Of a stretch of DNA of 53,447 nt, positions 20,937 through 26,676 are shown in pieces. Source of the DNA: Clostridia bacterium (GTDB taxonomy: Bacteria > Patescibacteriota > Microgenomatia > UM-FILTER-40-11); the NCBI GenBank assembly GCA_035529915.1, contig DATKVU010000171.1:1-53447 (forward strand). Direction: 5' to 3'. Made by a program: the position numbers and the translations under genes. Each line of letters opens with the position of its first letter. Positions within the stretch are counted from its first letter, which is position 1. Under the pieces are notes generated by a model. That model ran no database searches. It saw nothing but the letters and a program-made list of their open reading frames with translations, and was not told the DNA's origin.

Positions 20937-20953
20937 CCCGATGTTACATCGGG
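20937..20953 (+). repeat. Copy 1 of the 17-nt palindromic hairpin CCCGATGTTACATCGGG (in the 16S intron)
   Basis: Exact 17-mer. Confidence 0.95.
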
Positions 20954-21842
20954 AGAAAGTAACAGAATGTAGAGACCCCTGTAGTCCTAGCCGTAAACGA
21001 TGCCTGCTAGCTGGTGGCCCCGATTATCGGGGCCGGTGGCGTAAGCTAACGCGTTAAGCAGGCCGCCTGGGGAGTACGGCCGCAAGGTTGAAACTCAAAG
21101 GAATTGACGGGGACTCGCACAACCAGTGGAGCATGTGGTTTAATTCGATACGAAGCGTTGGACCTTACCCGGGCTTGACATGTTACCGTTTTAGTCTTCC
21201 AGAGATGGAGGACGATCCGCAAGGAAGGTAACACAGCTGCTGCATGGCTGTCGTCAGCTCTAGGCGTGAGCTGTAGGCTTAAGTGCCTCATAGAGCGCAA
21301 CCCCTGTCTTGTGTTAAATATTCACAAGAGACTGCCTCGATTTTTTATCGGGGAGGAAGGAGGGGACGACGTCAAGTCAGCATGGCGCTTATGTCCGGGG
21401 CGACACACATCCTACAATGGCGAAGAACAACGAGCTTAGCGACCTAGTAATGGGAAGCAAATCTCTGAAATTTCGCCTCAGTTCGGATTGAGGGCTGCAA
21501 CTTGCCCTCATGAAGTCGGAATTGGTAGTAATCGCGGATCAGCAGGCCGCGGTGAATACGTTCTCGAGTCTTGTACACACTGCCCGTCAAGTCAACAAAG
21601 TCGGGAGCGCCTGAAGATCCCGCTCAGCGGGATTGAAGGTGAGTTCGGCGATGGGGGCTAAGTCGTAACAAGGTAGCCGTTCTGGAAGGAGCGGCTGGAT
21701 CACCTCCTTTCTAAGGAGCTTTTACACGCCTCCGATGTCACATCGGAGAAACAAAGCCGTCTTGATTAGACGTTAAATAATCAGTCGGAGAAAAGTCATA
21801 TCCGACAAAGATTCCTACCGCTTTTTGATTGTCAAATAAAAA

Positions 21843-21865
21843 CCCCAGATTAATCTGGGGTTTTT
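21843..21865 (+). terminator. Terminator-like hairpin immediately after the 16S processing stem
   Basis: CCCCAGA-UUAA-UCUGGGG followed by five U. Confidence 0.55.
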
Positions 21866-21927
21866 GGTACATGCAAAATCTTTTCTTAATTTTGGTTTTG
21901 TGTTAAAATTTCGATACTTGAAGTTTT

Positions 21928-22002
21928 GGGCAAGTGGCTCAGTGGTAGAGCGATTCTCTGATAAAGAATAGGCCGAAGGTTCGATTCCTTCCTTGCCCAC
22001 CA
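21928..22002 (+). tRNA. tRNA-Ile (GAU anticodon), with CCA encoded
   Basis: Good cloverleaf: acceptor GGGCAAG/CTTGCCC, anticodon loop CTGATAA, T-arm GAAGG-TTCGATT-CCTTC. Confidence 0.9.
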
Positions 22003-22043
22003 CTTTTGCTTCTTGTATTTTCTCTTTCTGTTAAAATAACTTC

Positions 22044-22886
22044 ATGAAATTTTTGAAAAGGCTTTTGCTTTTGCTTTTTCTGGGAATTGGAATTTTGGGG
22101 CTAATTATTTTGGGGACAACGGTATTGGAGGAAGTAAGGGAAATTATCAATGTTGGCCGGGTCGAAGAAAGCAGGGAAGAGGAAATAGCTGAACAGGTCC
22201 TTAATTTTGCGGCCATGTCTGATGTTCACTCGGATATAGAAAGCCTAAAAAGAGCCTTGGAAATCGCTAAAGGCGAAGAAGTCGATTTTATTATTATTAC
22301 TGGCGATTTGACTTCTTTGGGTAAGAGGGATGAACTTTTGGAAGCAAAAAAAGTTTTGGACCAAAGCAGTTTTAAATATTACTCGATTCCGGGCAATCAT
22401 GATCTTTGGTGGAGCCAAAAATTTAATGAAGATGTTTTTGGAGAGGTCTTTGGCCAACACTTTCAGTCTTTTAAAGACAAAGGTGTAAAGTTTATTTTAG
22501 TTGATAATGGTAGTTACTTGGGAGTGGATGAAAAGCAAATGGAATGGATAGAAAATGAAGTGGTTGAATGTGCCCAGATAACCTGTCTGGTTTTTATGCA
22601 TATGCCTCTTAATCATCCTTCTTCTGTACATATTATGGGAGAAGATAGTCCCGAGGTAGCTAGCCAAGCGGCAGAGCTGGTGAAACTGTTGGTAGAAAAT
22701 AAAGTAAAAGAGCTTTTTGCTGGCCATTTACATTTTTCTTCTGAATATGAACTCCAAGGACTTCAGACTACTGTTGTTGGCGCTTTAACCCGAGCTCGCA
22801 ACCCCCAATCACCTAAATTTTTAGAAGTTTGGAAGGGAGAGGAGCTGGAAAAAAAAGAGGTTTTTTTAAGCGACTACACCCCCTGA
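22044..22886 (+). CDS. Calcineurin-like metallophosphoesterase with an N-terminal TM anchor
   Basis: Motifs SDVHS, GDLT, GNHD, MHMP and GHLH. It lies between tRNA-Ile and tRNA-Ala inside the rRNA locus. Confidence 0.8.
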   Translation: MKFLKRLLLLLFLGIGILGLIILGTTVLEEVREIINVGRVEESREEEIAEQVLNFAAMSDVHSDIESLKRALEIAKGEEVDFIIITGDLTSLGKRDELLEAKKVLDQSSFKYYSIPGNHDLWWSQKFNEDVFGEVFGQHFQSFKDKGVKFILVDNGSYLGVDEKQMEWIENEVVECAQITCLVFMHMPLNHPSSVHIMGEDSPEVASQAAELVKLLVENKVKELFAGHLHFSSEYELQGLQTTVVGALTRARNPQSPKFLEVWKGEELEKKEVFLSDYTP

Positions 22887-23048
22887 AATTGCCTGCTACG
22901 CTTCTTGACAGTCTCTGCCTATTTGGATATAATGCTTTTAGTCTCAAAGGAGACAGTTTAATTCATGAGAAGCACTCGAAAACAAGAAATCCTTTATCAG
23001 TTGTATTGTCACGGGCAAGGATAGCGGCTTCTTGTGAACTTTAGATAA

Positions 23049-24433: not shown

Positions 24434-24450
24434 CCCGATGTTACATCGGG
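24434..24450 (+). repeat. Copy 3 of the 17-nt hairpin (23S)
   Basis: Exact 17-mer. Confidence 0.95.
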
Positions 24451-25124
24451 AGGGGAATTTAGCGCCGTAGATGATCGAGAATAAGCTAAACGCCGAAATT
24501 CAAGATTGCTCGCTTATGCGAGTAGTGGTAGGGGAGCGTTCCGTGGGCGGTGAAGCCCTTCCGTAAGGTCAGGGTGGAGCGCACGGAAGTGAGAATGCCG
24601 GAATGAGTAACGAAAGTCCGATGAGAATTCGGACCGCCGAATACCCAAGGTTTCCCACGCAACGTTCGTCGACGTGGGGTAAGTCGGGACCTAACATGAG
24701 GCCAGCTAAACTGGCGTAGTGGATGGACAACAGGTTGATATTCCTGTACAGAGAAAGTGTCGTTATTTTCGCGCAAGCGGAAACAAGGTTCTGCAGACGT
24801 AAGTTTGCAGGGTCTTATTACCTGGGGACTGACGAAGTTGGAATAATCGAGTCAAGCGGTGAAGACGCTTGATTTAAGCATTGAAATGGTTTTGATTGGA
24901 AAATCCGTTAGAACGTTTAAATTGAGGTGTGAATAAAAGTTCTGCTGCAAGGCGGAGCAATTCGATGAGGTTCAGCTTCCCAGAAAAGGTTCGCAGGGAG
25001 ATGCTTTTTTTCCCGTACCGCAAACCGACACAGGTGGGTTGGTCGAGTAGACTAAGGCGAGCGAGAGAAGGAGGTTTAAGGAACTCGGCAAACAATCTGG
25101 ACGTAAGCTATGCAAGATGTCCTG

Positions 25125-25141
25125 CCCGATGTTACATCGGG
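25125..25141 (+). repeat. Copy 4 of the 17-nt hairpin (23S)
   Basis: Exact 17-mer. Confidence 0.95.
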
Positions 25142-26093
25142 CCACAGCAAAAGATTGCCAAGGGACTGTTTAACTAAAACACAGGTCTCTGCAAACCCGT
25201 AAGGGGAAGTATAGGGGCTGCGGCCTGCCCAGTGCCCGTAGGTCAAAGCTTAGGGTGACCCCGACGCAAGTCGGGATAGCTCTGGGCCTAAGCCCGGGTG
25301 AACGGCGGCACTAACTATAAGTGTCCTATGGTAGCGAAGTCCCTCGTCTGGTGAGTTCAGACCCGCACGAAAGGCTTAACCACTTGGCAACTGTCTTGAA
25401 CCTTCACTCGGTGAAATTGAAATGGCTGTGAAGATGCGGCCTATATGCTCTAGGACAAAAAGACCCCGTGGAGCTTTACTGTTACTTGGTACTGAAATGA
25501 AACGATGAACTGTTTAGAATAGGAGGGAGCCGCAAGGCGTCAGTGAAATACCTCTCTTTCGTTGTTTTCAGATCTAACTCATTCTGGCTGGAGACGCCAG
25601 AGGGGACCGTGCCAGGGAGACAGTTTGACTGGGGCAGTCGCTTGCTAAAAGGTAACGCAAGCTCACAAAGGTACCCTAAGCCCGGATGGAAATCGGGTGG
25701 TTTGTGTAAAGGCACAAGGGTGCTTGACTGCGAGACTGACAGGTCGAGCAGGTGCGAAAGCAGGTCTTAGTGATCCCCCGCCATTCCGTGGTTGGAGGCG
25801 GGGCTTAAAGGATAAAAGTTACCCCGGGGATAACAGAGTAGTCGCGCCCGAGCGTCCACAGCGCCGGCGCGGTTCGCTACCTCGATGTCGGCTCACCACA
25901 TCCTGGCGCTGAAGAAGGTGCCAAGGGTTGGACTGTTCGCCCATTAAAGTGGTACGTGAGCTGGGTTCAGAACGTAAATTACATTGCGTTCTATTGCAGT
26001 AATGCAGTACAATAAATCTGACTAAAATCGGTGAAACCCTCTTTCGGTTTTTAGAACTGGCCGAGAAGGGTAATACCGAGGGTAAGTCAAGAG

Positions 26094-26630
26094 GTGAGAA
26101 AAGAAGAGCTTGCTTATATTGCGAAGCAAACAAGCTTGGCTTATATTGCTGGTTTTCTAGATGGAGATGGATGTATTATGCTTCAGTTGGTATCTCGTAA
26201 GGATTATATTCTTGGATATCAGATAAGGGCAAGCATTGTTTTCTATCAAAAACAGAAATATAGGTCTTTTTTAGAAGAGATTAAGGAAAAGTTGAAATAT
26301 GGTTATATCAGGGAGCGAAACGATGGTATAGTGGAATACACTATCGTCGGATTTGAACCAGTAAAAAAGATTTTAACCTTACTTTATCCTTATTTGAAAC
26401 TGAAAAAGCAACAAGCCAAACTTGCGCTAGAAGTTATTGAGAAAATTCCGAAAGAAGTTAGGTTGCCAAAAAGAACGAAATTAAGCGCTGAGCTTCTAAT
26501 GGAATTATCATATGAAGTTGATAAATTTGCATCTTTGAATTATTCAAAGAGACGAACCAACACTTCAGCACAAGTAAAAGAATTCTTAATATCTCACAAT
26601 CTCTTGAATCCCGTAGAGACTGATCCCTAG
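26094..26630 (+). CDS. Single-motif LAGLIDADG homing endonuclease, I-CreI-like
   Basis: [36 protein letters not shown] and [15 protein letters not shown] are collinear with I-CreI as I recall it. GTG start. The 3' end of the ORF runs into the intron R element. Confidence 0.8.
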
Positions 26631-26659
26631 GTCCATCTAGTCAATGGAAGTAAGGTGAC

Positions 26660-26676
26660 CCCGATGTTACATCGGG
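26660..26676 (+). repeat. Copy 5 of the 17-nt hairpin (in the 23S intron)
   Basis: Exact 17-mer; the stem extends to 19 nt. Confidence 0.95.

What the first reader, a model, noticed from the sequence alone, without database searches (positions are those of the whole stretch)
20937..26676. An identical 17-nt palindromic hairpin occurs five times in the rRNA locus, in both introns and three 23S helices
CCCGATGTTACATCGGG has a 7-8 bp stem and a UUA-type apex. It is present at 20937 (16S intron), 23567, 24434 and 25125 (mature 23S), and 26660 (23S intron). The flanking sequences show no similarity to one another. I did not see the 17-mer outside the rRNA locus.

Close relatives built on the same CCCGAU...AUCGGG stem or the same UUA apex are scattered through the locus:
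- CUCCGAUGUCACAUCGGAG in the spacer, at about 21730.
- CCCGATATCAATCGGG at about 23185.
- CCCCGAUGAAAAUCGGGG at 24033.
- CCCCGAUUAUCGGGG at 21018.
- CCCCAUCUUAGAUGGGG at 20913.
- CCAAGCUUAGCUUGG at 27071.

Five exact copies capping unrelated helices is not expected from ordinary rRNA evolution. Possible explanations are a miniature palindromic insertion element that targets helix tips, a repeated protein-recognition or processing hairpin, or helix truncations repaired from a common template.
Basis: seen in the sequence. Interest (0 to 1): 0.7.

Follow-up and report, generated by a model that had tools for sequence, protein, structure and literature searches.

The report
Roving 17-base hairpin in ribosomal RNA
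One identical 17-base hairpin has been written into five unrelated spots of this bacterium's ribosomal RNA operon, and the same tiny sequence turns up as a repeat in many unrelated bacterial phyla, so it behaves like one of the smallest mobile DNA modules yet seen.

Summary
CCCGATGTTACATCGGG occurs exactly five times, all on the + strand and all inside the rRNA operon (0 expected). One coordinate is a typo: 23567 should be 23557.

The five sites are:
- the 3' periphery of a 16S group I intron
- 23S helix H15
- an extra hairpin branching from H42
- H63
- a 23S group I intron

Relatives with 84-94% identical rRNA have a hairpin at four of these sites, but with other sequences. The fifth site, in the 16S intron, is a ~24-nt insertion. 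The H42 branch is a clade-specific insertion. So one module has overwritten or been added to several helix tips in this lineage.

Twenty genomes are multi-copy with unrelated flanks. There it caps RNase P RNA helices, cobalamin riboswitch hairpins, intron helices, other CPR rRNA helices and terminators. It also sits in frame in protein linkers.

Stems are strictly Watson-Crick and both orientations occur, which points to a DNA-level palindrome.

Best reading: a miniature REP/RHE-like hairpin module copied between hairpin sites. The copying machinery is unknown. No paper contains the sequence.

The parts
20937..20953 (+). Copy 1 of the 17-mer. It lies in the 3' peripheral region of the 16S group I intron, after P9 and before the 3' splice site.
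   Evidence: Exact match. It is absent from the homologous intron of L136, where there is a ~24-nt gap. The Rfam intron core ends at 20889.
23557..23573 (+). Copy 2, the cap of 23S helix H15. This helix is variable: it is absent in E. coli and is a hairpin in the Rfam bacterial consensus.
   Evidence: L130 has CCCGGTATAATACCGGG and L095 has TCCGGTGTAACACCGGA at the same place.
24434..24450 (+). Copy 3, an extra hairpin branching from the internal loop of H42 (E. coli about 1113/1114).
   Evidence: A branch is present only in WIN, L130, L135 and L136, each with a different sequence. It is absent in L123, L137, L095, L069 and E. coli.
25125..25141 (+). Copy 4. It stands in place of H63 (E. coli 1707-1751).
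   Evidence: Relatives carry other short hairpins there: L130 CCAGCGCAAGCTGG, L123 CCCTCCGATTCGGAGGG, L095 CCCGATTAAATCGGG.
26660..26676 (+). Copy 5, a peripheral hairpin of the 23S group I intron, between the P7/P3 strand and P8.
   Evidence: L130 has an unrelated 25-nt AU-rich hairpin there. L095 has TCCCGATTAAATCGGGA there and carries the 17-mer, flipped, at P8.
21730..21748 (+). Family variant CTCCGATGTCACATCGGAG in the spacer, 20 nt after the 16S 3' end.
23854..23872 (+). Family variant GTCCGACGTAACGTCGGAC at the tip of H25. It has one compensatory pair and a flipped centre.
   Evidence: L062 has GGTCCGATGTTACATCGGACT at the same helix.
20837..20855 (+). Degenerate relative TCCCGGTATAACACCGGGA at P8 of the 16S intron.
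   Evidence: L136 has the exact 17-mer, in TAA orientation, at the homologous position.
24033..24050 (+). H34 tip CCCCGATGAAAATCGGGG. It has the same CCCGAU/AUCGGG stem with a GAAA loop. It is probably an ordinary homologous helix and a possible source of the stem.
21016..21034 (+). 16S helix tip GGCCCCGATTATCGGGGCC, a perfect odd palindrome with the same stem. My placement of it in the h26 region rests on my own knowledge of 16S structure.
   Evidence: L136 has CCTCCCGATTTATCGGGGGG there.
23184..23201 (+). TCCCGATATCAATCGGGA in the tRNA-Ala to 23S spacer.
20080..20969 (+). 16S group I intron. It carries a split LAGLIDADG_2 ORF (20180-20572 and 20565-20813) and hosts copy 1.
25976..26758 (+). 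23S group I intron, inserted after E. coli position 2593/2594. It carries a LAGLIDADG_1 ORF (26094-26630) and hosts copy 5.

Best explanation
The 17-mer is the most successful member of a family of miniature, non-coding, perfectly palindromic DNA modules (core CCG-RY-GT-N-AC-RY-CGG). These modules are copied non-reciprocally into DNA sites that already form, or can tolerate, a hairpin.

In this CPR (Shapirobacteria-like) genome, one module has recently been written into five sites of the rRNA operon:
- It overwrote the tips of pre-existing variable helices at H15, H63 and a 23S-intron hairpin.
- It occupies a clade-specific extra branch on H42.
- It was newly inserted near the 3' end of the 16S intron.

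The copies are then carried passively in the transcripts as stable 7-8 bp helix caps on tolerant, surface-exposed or peripheral positions.

What is shown:
- The five copies are identical.
- The helices are non-homologous.
- Relatives carry different sequences at the same helices.
- Two sites are insertions.
- The family shows DNA-type (strictly Watson-Crick) palindromy and occurs in both orientations.
- It is a dispersed repeat with unrelated flanks in many phyla.

What is inferred:
- The copying step. I favour replication template switching, or gene conversion, between hairpin-forming sites. It would use the 2-4 bp of shared stem base (CC...GG) as microhomology.
- The seeding of new genomes. 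I favour horizontally moving carriers such as endonuclease-bearing group I introns.
- The alternative sub-mechanism is a dedicated hairpin-specific enzyme acting in trans. I cannot exclude it.
For: Within the window:
- Five exact copies, none with 1-2 mismatches, all in one orientation. This fits recent copying from one another.

Relatives at the same sites:
- L130, whose rRNA is 84-94% identical, has hairpins at all four 23S and 23S-intron sites, with other sequences.
- The H42 branch is absent from L123, L137, L095, L069 and E. coli.
- Copy 1 is an insertion relative to the homologous intron of L136. L136 instead has the exact 17-mer, flipped, at P8.

Other CPR rRNA operons:
- They carry the same hairpin on other helices. 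L062 has it at H25, an H78-region helix, H98 and intron P8.
- L129 has 6 copies of the core, and L095 and L123 have several.
- A second module, CCCTCCGATTCGGAGGG, sits on the H42 branch in L135 and on H63 in L123. CCCGATTAAATCGGG occurs three times in L095.

Other genomes:
- 20 genomes are multi-copy. Their flank identity averages about 0.20-0.37 in 18 of 20 genomes, roughly chance level.
- 81% of copies have at least one extra complementary flanking pair, against 25% expected. That places them at the tips of longer hairpins.
- Hosts include RNase P RNA (4 different helices), 2 cobalamin riboswitches, group I introns, tRNA-derived fragments, terminators and in-frame protein linkers.

DNA-level signature:
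- 163 of 164 CCGNNGTNACNNCGG sites are fully Watson-Crick.
- There is 1 G.U among about 168 core pairs, against 18% G.U in GNRA-capped hairpins of the same rRNAs.
- Orientation across the CPR rRNA loci is about 10 UUA to 9 UAA.

Supporting literature:
- Template switching is documented to create perfect stems and invert loops in rRNA hairpins (PMC8794818).
- Short hairpin repeats invade rRNA variable regions in sponge mitochondria (PMC2800124).
Against: - No machinery was found. No transposase-like family recurs near copies among 3313 ORFs from the 119 loci.
- Template switching alone does not explain why the same 17 nt is a repeat family in 10 or more phyla. That needs repeated horizontal seeding, which I did not demonstrate.
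- The viral collection has only 2 hits.
- The H15 and H42-branch hairpins of L130 differ from the 17-mer only by two compensatory pairs plus the centre. Those two sites could therefore have reached the sequence by ordinary substitution.
- No target-site duplication or clean empty-site/filled-site pair between near-identical strains was available.
- All multi-copy genomes are metagenome-assembled.
- I had no matched control palindrome for the big scan, which was limited to one.
Confidence: 0.5

Rival explanations
1. The hairpin is a selected recognition site. A conserved dimeric DNA-binding protein (following the logic of parS/ParB), or an RNA-binding protein, recognises the 17-mer. Sites then evolve or are retained wherever a palindrome can be tolerated: helix tips, terminators, protein linkers.
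For: - The same exact sequence occurs across many phyla with a handful of copies per genome. That is what a conserved protein specificity would give without any mobility.
- The in-frame copy in Mfd replaces a similar native motif with only a 2-residue length change. This looks like conversion of, or selection on, a near-match.
- Strict Watson-Crick symmetry fits a double-stranded DNA site.
- Five sites are clustered in one operon.
Against: - The centre base and two stem pairs vary freely through compensatory changes, and the helices occupied differ between lineages.
- The closest relative, L130, has none. A housekeeping site would not be so patchy.
- An RNA-level role is hard to reconcile with copies in coding regions, riboswitches and both orientations.
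- There is no candidate protein. Half-sites are not enriched on their own.
Confidence: 0.2
2. This is purely local concerted evolution. Ordinary rRNA hairpins of this clade share CCCGAU/AUCGGG stems. Within one operon they were homogenised by template switching or gene conversion. No element exists in its own right, and the matches in other phyla are coincidental members of a common class of stable CCCGA...TCGGG hairpins.
For: - Related stems are ancestral in several helices of the clade: H34, H63 and a 16S helix tip.
- Many helix tips in these rRNAs are perfect odd palindromes, as template switching would produce (PMC8794818).
- All five window copies lie within 6 kb.
- A specific 17-nt palindrome is expected by chance tens of times in 596 Gb.
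Against: - 20 genomes from 10 or more phyla hold 2-7 copies each on different contigs, with unrelated flanks. That is impossible by chance, given about 6e-4 expected per genome.
- Near-variants at 1 and 2 mismatches are 400-fold and 30-fold above chance in those loci.
- The same hairpin appears in RNase P RNA of four phyla on four different helices.
Confidence: 0.15
3. The hairpins are processing signals, like intervening sequences. They would be cut out of, or mark cleavage of, the rRNA precursor by an RNase III-type enzyme or similar, as with the intervening sequences (IVS) of 23S H25/H45.
For: - Family members lie just after the 16S 3' end (21730), before the 23S 5' end (23184), and in the equivalent spacers of L088 and L042.
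- A variant sits at H25, a classical IVS site.
- The window encodes two '23S rRNA intervening sequence protein' family genes.
Against: - A 7-8 bp stem is far shorter than known RNase III substrates (established knowledge).
- The sites H15, H42 and H63 are not IVS sites.
- Copies in riboswitches, RNase P RNA and ORFs make no sense as rRNA processing signals.
- IVP genes are not found near copies elsewhere: 1 of 119 loci.
Confidence: 0.05

Closest known systems
Organellar repetitive hairpin-forming elements: sponge mitochondrial RHE, yeast mitochondrial GC clusters, Allomyces double-hairpin elements
   Same: - They are short (15-40 nt) hairpin-forming repeats with unrelated flanks.
- They are found in intergenic DNA and introns, inside rRNA genes at length-variable regions, and occasionally in protein genes.
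- They are patchy between related lineages, and no transposase is known (PMC2800124; PMC4478555).
   Different: - Those are confined to single organelle genomes or lineages. Here the host is a free-living or episymbiotic bacterium.
- Here the identical 17-mer is a repeat in many bacterial phyla.
- It is a perfect palindrome down to a single central base.
- It often replaces an existing helix tip rather than only adding length.
REP/BIME elements and REPINs with their RAYT transposase
   Same: - Short palindromic repeats dispersed through bacterial genomes.
- Frequent at gene 3' ends.
- Sometimes several different hairpins occur in one intergenic region, as in L016.
   Different: - REPs are imperfect, 20-40 nt, strictly extragenic and species-specific.
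- They carry a conserved GTAG and flank a RAYT gene.
- None of these features was seen here.
Rickettsia palindromic elements (RPE)
   Same: They insert in frame into protein-coding genes and into RNA genes at positions that tolerate them (own knowledge: Ogata et al. 2000).
   Different: RPEs are 100-150 bp and restricted to Rickettsia. Here the unit is 17-21 nt and spans phyla.
23S rRNA intervening sequences (IVS) in H25/H45
   Same: They are sporadic, apparently horizontally acquired extra stem-loops that replace helix tips of 23S rRNA (own knowledge).
   Different: - IVSs are 50-700 nt and sit at two fixed helices.
- They are excised by RNase III, which fragments the rRNA.
- Here the hairpins are 17 nt, lie on other helices, and excision is untested.
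Template-switch mutations in rRNA hairpins (Monttinen and Loytynoja 2022)
   Same: They explain perfect stems, multiple simultaneous compensatory changes and inverted loops, all of which are seen here.
   Different: The described events copy within one hairpin. They do not explain identical sequences at unrelated helices or across genomes.

Membership tests
REP / REPIN-RAYT | Extragenic location only | tested here: not met
   Copies lie inside rRNA, RNase P RNA, riboswitches and introns. About 15-25% lie in frame in long ORFs.
REP / REPIN-RAYT | Conserved GTAG-type tetranucleotide next to an imperfect palindrome | tested here: not met
   The flanks of 122 copies show no conserved motif beyond one complementary pair, and the palindrome is perfect.
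REP / REPIN-RAYT | Cognate RAYT (Y1 HUH transposase) gene flanked by the repeats | tested here: inconclusive
   No recurrent nuclease or transposase family was found among 3313 ORFs in the 119 loci. Whole genomes were not searched.
MITE | Terminal inverted repeats of a parent IS, a target-site duplication, and a length of 50-500 bp | tested here: not met
   The unit is 17-21 nt. No parent element exists and flanks are unrelated. No clear duplication is visible at the two insertion sites that could be compared.
23S rRNA intervening sequence (IVS) | Located at the tip of H25 or H45 | tested here: not met
   Exact copies lie at H15, an H42 branch and H63. Only a variant lies at H25, and H45 is ordinary.
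23S rRNA intervening sequence (IVS) | Excised by RNase III, giving fragmented 23S rRNA | not testable with these tools
   This needs RNA end mapping. The stem of 7-8 bp is short for RNase III (own knowledge).
Organellar repetitive hairpin elements (RHE / GC clusters) | Short hairpin-forming repeat with unrelated flanks, in several copies per genome | tested here: met
Organellar repetitive hairpin elements (RHE / GC clusters) | Inserted in rRNA genes at length-variable regions, in introns and spacers, and rarely in protein genes | tested here: met
   compared with PMC2800124.
Organellar repetitive hairpin elements (RHE / GC clusters) | Resident in a mitochondrial or plastid genome and lineage-specific | tested here: not met
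   The host is a CPR bacterium. The same sequence occurs in 15 or more bacterial phylum-level groups.
DNA uptake sequences (USS/DUS) | A short one-sided motif enriched on its own, with inverted pairs only a subset | tested here: not met
   The half-site CCCGATGT occurs alone 44 times against about 25 expected, and as the full palindrome 123 times.
Template-switch-generated hairpin | Perfect Watson-Crick arms, loop inversions, several compensatory changes at once | tested here: met
   This explains the form of the hairpins but not their identity across sites.
Protein operator / centromere-like site (parS logic) | A cognate conserved DNA-binding protein and positional bias on the chromosome | not testable with these tools
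   No whole genomes or binding data were available. Patchy presence among close relatives argues against it.

The most novel reading that the evidence does not exclude
A trans-acting, horizontally spreading 'hairpin writer' exists. This would be an enzyme or replication-coupled machinery that recognises DNA hairpins and pastes this 17-19 nt cassette into their tips. That would make the cassette the smallest known mobile genetic element. It would be a general remodeller of structured RNAs (ribosome, RNase P, riboswitches, introns) and of protein loops across many bacterial phyla.
Probability: 0.2. Interest if true: 0.9.

Novelty: new variant of a known kind. Interest (0 to 1): 0.74.

Why it matters
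- If the module is truly mobile, it shows how rRNA expansion segments, extra ribozyme helices and protein loop insertions can arise in one step from a 17-nt cassette. It would also extend a phenomenon known from organelles and Rickettsia to a broad swathe of uncultivated bacteria.
- It gives a concrete, searchable marker for finding the unknown copying machinery by phylogenetic profiling.
- It warns that identical hairpins in rRNA variable regions are not homologous characters, which matters for alignment and phylogeny.
- It identifies naturally tolerated insertion points on CPR ribosomes and RNase P RNA that could be used for tagging.

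Tried and rejected
- **Chance.** Rejected by shuffles and by multi-copy genomes.
- **Assembly or adapter artefact.**
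  - The sequence does not match the Illumina, Nextera or SMRTbell adapter sequences I know.
  - It occurs in assemblies from many studies and assemblers, in frame in conserved genes, with compensatory variants, and in an independent contig identical to the window.
- **Inheritance by descent at homologous helices.** Rejected, because relatives carry other sequences and other lineages use other helices.
- **DNA uptake sequence.** The half-site is not enriched.
- **tRNA anticodon-arm mimic.**
  - The hairpin replaces the 17-nt anticodon arm in tRNA-derived fragments (L002, L114).
  - The loop UGUUACA violates the U33 and purine-37 rules, and ARAGORN calls no tRNA there.
- **Phage carrier.** Only 2 hits in the viral collection.
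- **Linked enzyme.**
  - All-against-all clustering of 3313 neighbouring ORFs gave only ABC ATPases, EF-Tu/LepA and response regulators, plus 4-genome clusters of LAGLIDADG and GIY-YIG.
  - The '23S rRNA IVS protein' family, present twice in the window, is near a copy in only 1 of 119 loci.
- **RNA-level selected motif.** Weakened by the near absence of G.U pairs and by both orientations.
- **Literature.** No paper contains the 13-17-mers in either orientation or alphabet, and no CPR paper describes such hairpins.

Full report
**1. The observation**

CCCGATGTTACATCGGG occurs exactly five times in the 53,447-nt window. The copies are at 20937, 23557, 24434, 25125 and 26660, all on the + strand. 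None occurred in 100 shuffles.

- With up to 3 mismatches, no copy has 1 or 2 mismatches. The only 3-mismatch relatives are at 20838 and 21731.
- All nine CCGAT...ATCGG palindromes of the window fall between 20938 and 26675, against 0.2 expected.
- The 9-nt core occurs nowhere else.
- Each copy folds as a 7-8 bp stem with a UUA triloop in its own context. The bare 17-mer folds at -7.7 kcal/mol.
- A separate metagenome contig, L134, is 99.99% identical to window 21014-27968 and holds the four copies it spans.

**2. Context**

Rfam and ARAGORN give the operon layout:
- 16S at 19333-21710
- tRNA-Ile
- a metallophosphoesterase ORF at 22044-22886
- tRNA-Ala
- 23S from 23295
- 5S at 27139-27255

The 16S is interrupted at about 20080-20969 by an intron with a split LAGLIDADG_2 ORF. 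The 23S is interrupted at 25976-25758+1000 (that is, 25976-26758) by an intron with a LAGLIDADG_1 ORF. This intron is inserted after E. coli 2593/2594. Both introns give weak Rfam group I matches over the J8/7-P7-P9 core: 30.4 bits with E = 1e-5, and 20.3 bits with E = 0.012. The Rfam end of 23S at 26052 is an artefact of the intron. Homologues of the metallophosphoesterase place the organism among Shapirobacteria-like CPR bacteria.

**3. Which helices**

I aligned the window to E. coli 23S (L122) and to the Rfam consensus.
- 23557 is the cap of H15. E. coli lacks this helix. The Rfam bacterial consensus has a 22-nt hairpin there.
- 24434 is an extra hairpin that branches from the internal loop of H42, at E. 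coli about 1113/1114. Folding gives a three-way junction.
- 25125 stands where the 45-nt H63 of E. coli is.
- 20937 lies after P9 in the 3' periphery of the 16S intron.
- 26660 lies between the P7/P3 strand and P8 of the 23S intron.

From my own knowledge, H15, H25, H63 and H98 are classical expansion-segment sites.

**4. Relatives**

A metagenome scan with the 23S-intron endonuclease gave L123-L133. Look-ups of metallophosphoesterase homologues gave L135-L138.

L130 has 84-94% identical rRNA. It has a hairpin at each of the four 23S and 23S-intron sites, but with a different sequence at each:
- H15: CCCGGTATAATACCGGG
- H42 branch: TCCGGTGTTTCACCGGA
- H63: CCAGCGCAAGCTGG
- intron: a 25-nt AU-rich hairpin

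The first two differ from the 17-mer by two compensatory pairs plus the centre. The last two are unrelated to it.

The H42 branch exists only in WIN, L130, L135 (CCCTCCGATTCGGAGGG) and L136 (a long hairpin). It is absent from L123, L137, L095, L069 and E. coli. It is therefore a clade-specific insertion whose content has turned over.

L136 shares the 16S intron. There, the window's copy at 20937 corresponds to a ~24-nt gap. L136 has the exact 17-mer, in the flipped TAA orientation, at P8. The window has the degenerate CCCGGTATAACACCGGG at that position.

**5. The same hairpin on other helices in other CPR lineages**

- L062 has family copies at H25, an H78-region helix, H98 and intron P8.
- L129 has six copies of the core CCGATGT[T/A]ACATCGG.
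- L123 has four family copies. L095 has three, plus three copies of another palindrome, TCCCGATTAAATCGGGA, at H63, in the intron and at a third 23S site.
- The palindrome CCCTCCGATTCGGAGGG is on the H42 branch in L135 and on H63 in L123.
- Across these operons the centre is UUA about 10 times and UAA about 9 times, and C or G centres also occur.

Identical modules on non-homologous helices, with different helices occupied in different lineages, exclude simple descent.

**6. Beyond rRNA and beyond CPR**

These come from 73 genomes of 15 or more phylum-level groups:
- Planctomycetota
- Elusimicrobia
- Desantisbacteria
- Thermodesulfobacteriota
- Edwardsbacteria
- Chloroflexota
- Actinomycetota
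- Bacteroidota
- Ignavibacteria
- Omnitrophota
- Margulis/Saganbacteria
- many CPR groups
- others

Twenty genomes have 2-7 copies, on different contigs for most. In 18 of the 20, mean flank identity is about 0.20-0.37, close to what unrelated sequences give. The exceptions are JASEEZ (0.50) and JBBRWS (0.42); MNUP also holds some copies with identical flanks, inside longer repeats. The chance expectation per genome is about 6e-4. Near-variants with 1 or 2 mismatches are 400-fold and 30-fold above chance in these loci.

81% of copies have at least one more complementary flanking pair, against 25% expected. So they sit at the tips of longer hairpins.

Rfam places copies in the following RNAs:
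- RNase P RNA. By the model's structure and my reading of the nomenclature, these are P8 in L008, P9 in L038 and L046, and P16/17 in L003. L086 probably has one at P3, judged by eye.
- Two different peripheral hairpins of cobalamin riboswitches (L066, L085).
- Group I introns (L069, L083, L092, L095).
- 23S rRNA and rRNA spacers of other CPR genomes (L042, L062, L088, L101).

Further contexts:
- In L002 and L114 the hairpin replaces the anticodon arm of tRNA-derived fragments.
- Many copies cap terminator-like hairpins.
- 15-25% lie in long ORFs, always in frame, read as PDVTSG, PMLHRG or RC(Y/N)IG. Most are in linkers or loops.
- In an Mfd gene the copy overlaps the native LLQ-type motif with only a 2-residue length change.

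**7. DNA-level or RNA-level**

- Of 164 CCGNNGTNACNNCGG sites, 163 have both variable pairs Watson-Crick.
- In 28 GTNAC-tipped hairpins of 11 CPR rRNA operons there is 1 G.U among about 168 core pairs. GNRA-capped hairpins of the same RNAs have 18% G.U.
- The palindrome runs to a single central base, so even the loop-flanking U and A are complementary.
- Both orientations occur.

These are properties of a DNA palindrome, not of an RNA motif maintained by RNA-level selection. The copies are not all independent, so this is supportive rather than conclusive.

**8. Explanation**

I conclude that the 17-mer is a miniature palindromic module. It is copied non-reciprocally into sites that form or tolerate hairpins. 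It survives where an extra perfect stem-loop is harmless. In this genome the rRNA operon is the largest such sink. The absence of 1-2-mismatch copies and the uniform orientation indicate recent copying.

For the copying step I favour template switching or gene conversion between hairpin sites, for these reasons:
- The replaced segments share only the 2-4 bp stem base.
- Perfect odd palindromes abound at variable helix tips in this clade.
- Loop inversions occur.
- Template switching is documented in rRNA hairpins (PMC8794818).

Endonuclease-bearing group I introns repeatedly carry the hairpin and could seed new genomes. This is inference.

The weak point is the cross-phylum identity. A dedicated trans-acting enzyme, or a conserved binding protein, would explain it more easily. 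I found no such gene near copies. The rivals and their tests are given in the rival explanations section.

**9. Comparison with known elements**

- In behaviour the closest are organellar repetitive hairpin elements: sponge mitochondrial RHEs of 15-18 nt inside rnl and rns at variable regions, and yeast GC clusters.
- Rickettsia palindromic elements are also close.
- It fails the defining features of REP/RAYT elements, MITEs, 23S intervening sequences and uptake sequences (see the membership table).
- No paper in the library holds the sequence.

I therefore class it as a new variant of a known kind. The genuinely surprising feature is that one exact 17-mer is a repeat family across many bacterial phyla and caps helices of several universal RNAs.

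**10. Limits**

- All multi-copy genomes are metagenome-assembled.
- No strain pairs with empty and filled sites were available.
- Helix names for H78 and the RNase P helices rest on alignment plus my own knowledge.
- Retention of the hairpins in mature rRNA is untested.

Noticed in passing
window 21838-21865: A perfect 28-nt palindrome, AAAAACCCCAGATTAATCTGGGGTTTTT, looks like a bidirectional intrinsic terminator. It lies between 16S and tRNA-Ile, inside the rRNA operon. Similar hairpins sit at the same place in L130 (1928) and L129 (317). This suggests that 16S is transcribed separately from 23S.
   Followed up: partly
window 22044-22886: A metallophosphoesterase gene (PF00149/PF12850) sits between tRNA-Ile and tRNA-Ala, inside the rRNA operon. 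The arrangement SpoU methylase, 16S, this gene, 23S, S1 protein is seen in L136; L135 (gene, 23S, S1) and L137 (SpoU, 16S, gene) each show part of it, and a homologue lies on the same contig as the 23S of L123.
   Followed up: partly
window 20180-20813: The LAGLIDADG_2 endonuclease ORF of the 16S intron is split into two overlapping frames (20180-20572 and 20565-20813). It is either a frameshifted pseudogene or needs a frameshift to be read.
   Followed up: no
window 46857-47228 (+) and 50044-50445 (-): Two genes belong to the '23S rRNA intervening sequence protein' / bAvd-like four-helix-bundle family (PF05635). One flanks a tRNA-Ala gene. I found no link to the hairpins.
   Followed up: partly
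window 20913, 21016, 21617, 23854, 26958, 27070; also L130, L135, L123: Many variable helix tips in these CPR rRNAs are perfect odd-length palindromes with a single central base (a 'triloop' whose flanking bases are complementary). This is unusual compared with the GNRA/UNCG tetraloops typical of rRNA.
   Followed up: partly
L002 3100-3600 (Planctomycetota MAG219): A small GIY-YIG nuclease ORF is flanked by tRNA-Arg-like fragments. The anticodon arm of each is replaced by the 17-mer, and one copy has a 1-nt insertion. A real tRNA-Arg(CCT) lies between them.
   Followed up: partly
L084 1370-3964 (Saccharibacteria): The LepA/EF4 gene carries an inserted PD-(D/E)XK nuclease domain (PDDEXK_3, residues 142-255) within its GTPase region.
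   Followed up: no
L130 5240-5390, L129 3893-4218, L135 and L133 H15 region: Relatives carry 100-330-nt AT-rich expansions in 23S domain I (the H9/H10 and H15 regions) that the window lacks. Domain I of these CPR 23S rRNAs is highly plastic in length.
   Followed up: no
window 548-1849: This ORF has no Pfam hit. Its N-terminus (DLHLHSKYSRAVS...GTGDFTHP) resembles the PHP-type endonuclease Q family. That judgement is from memory and was not tested.
   Followed up: no
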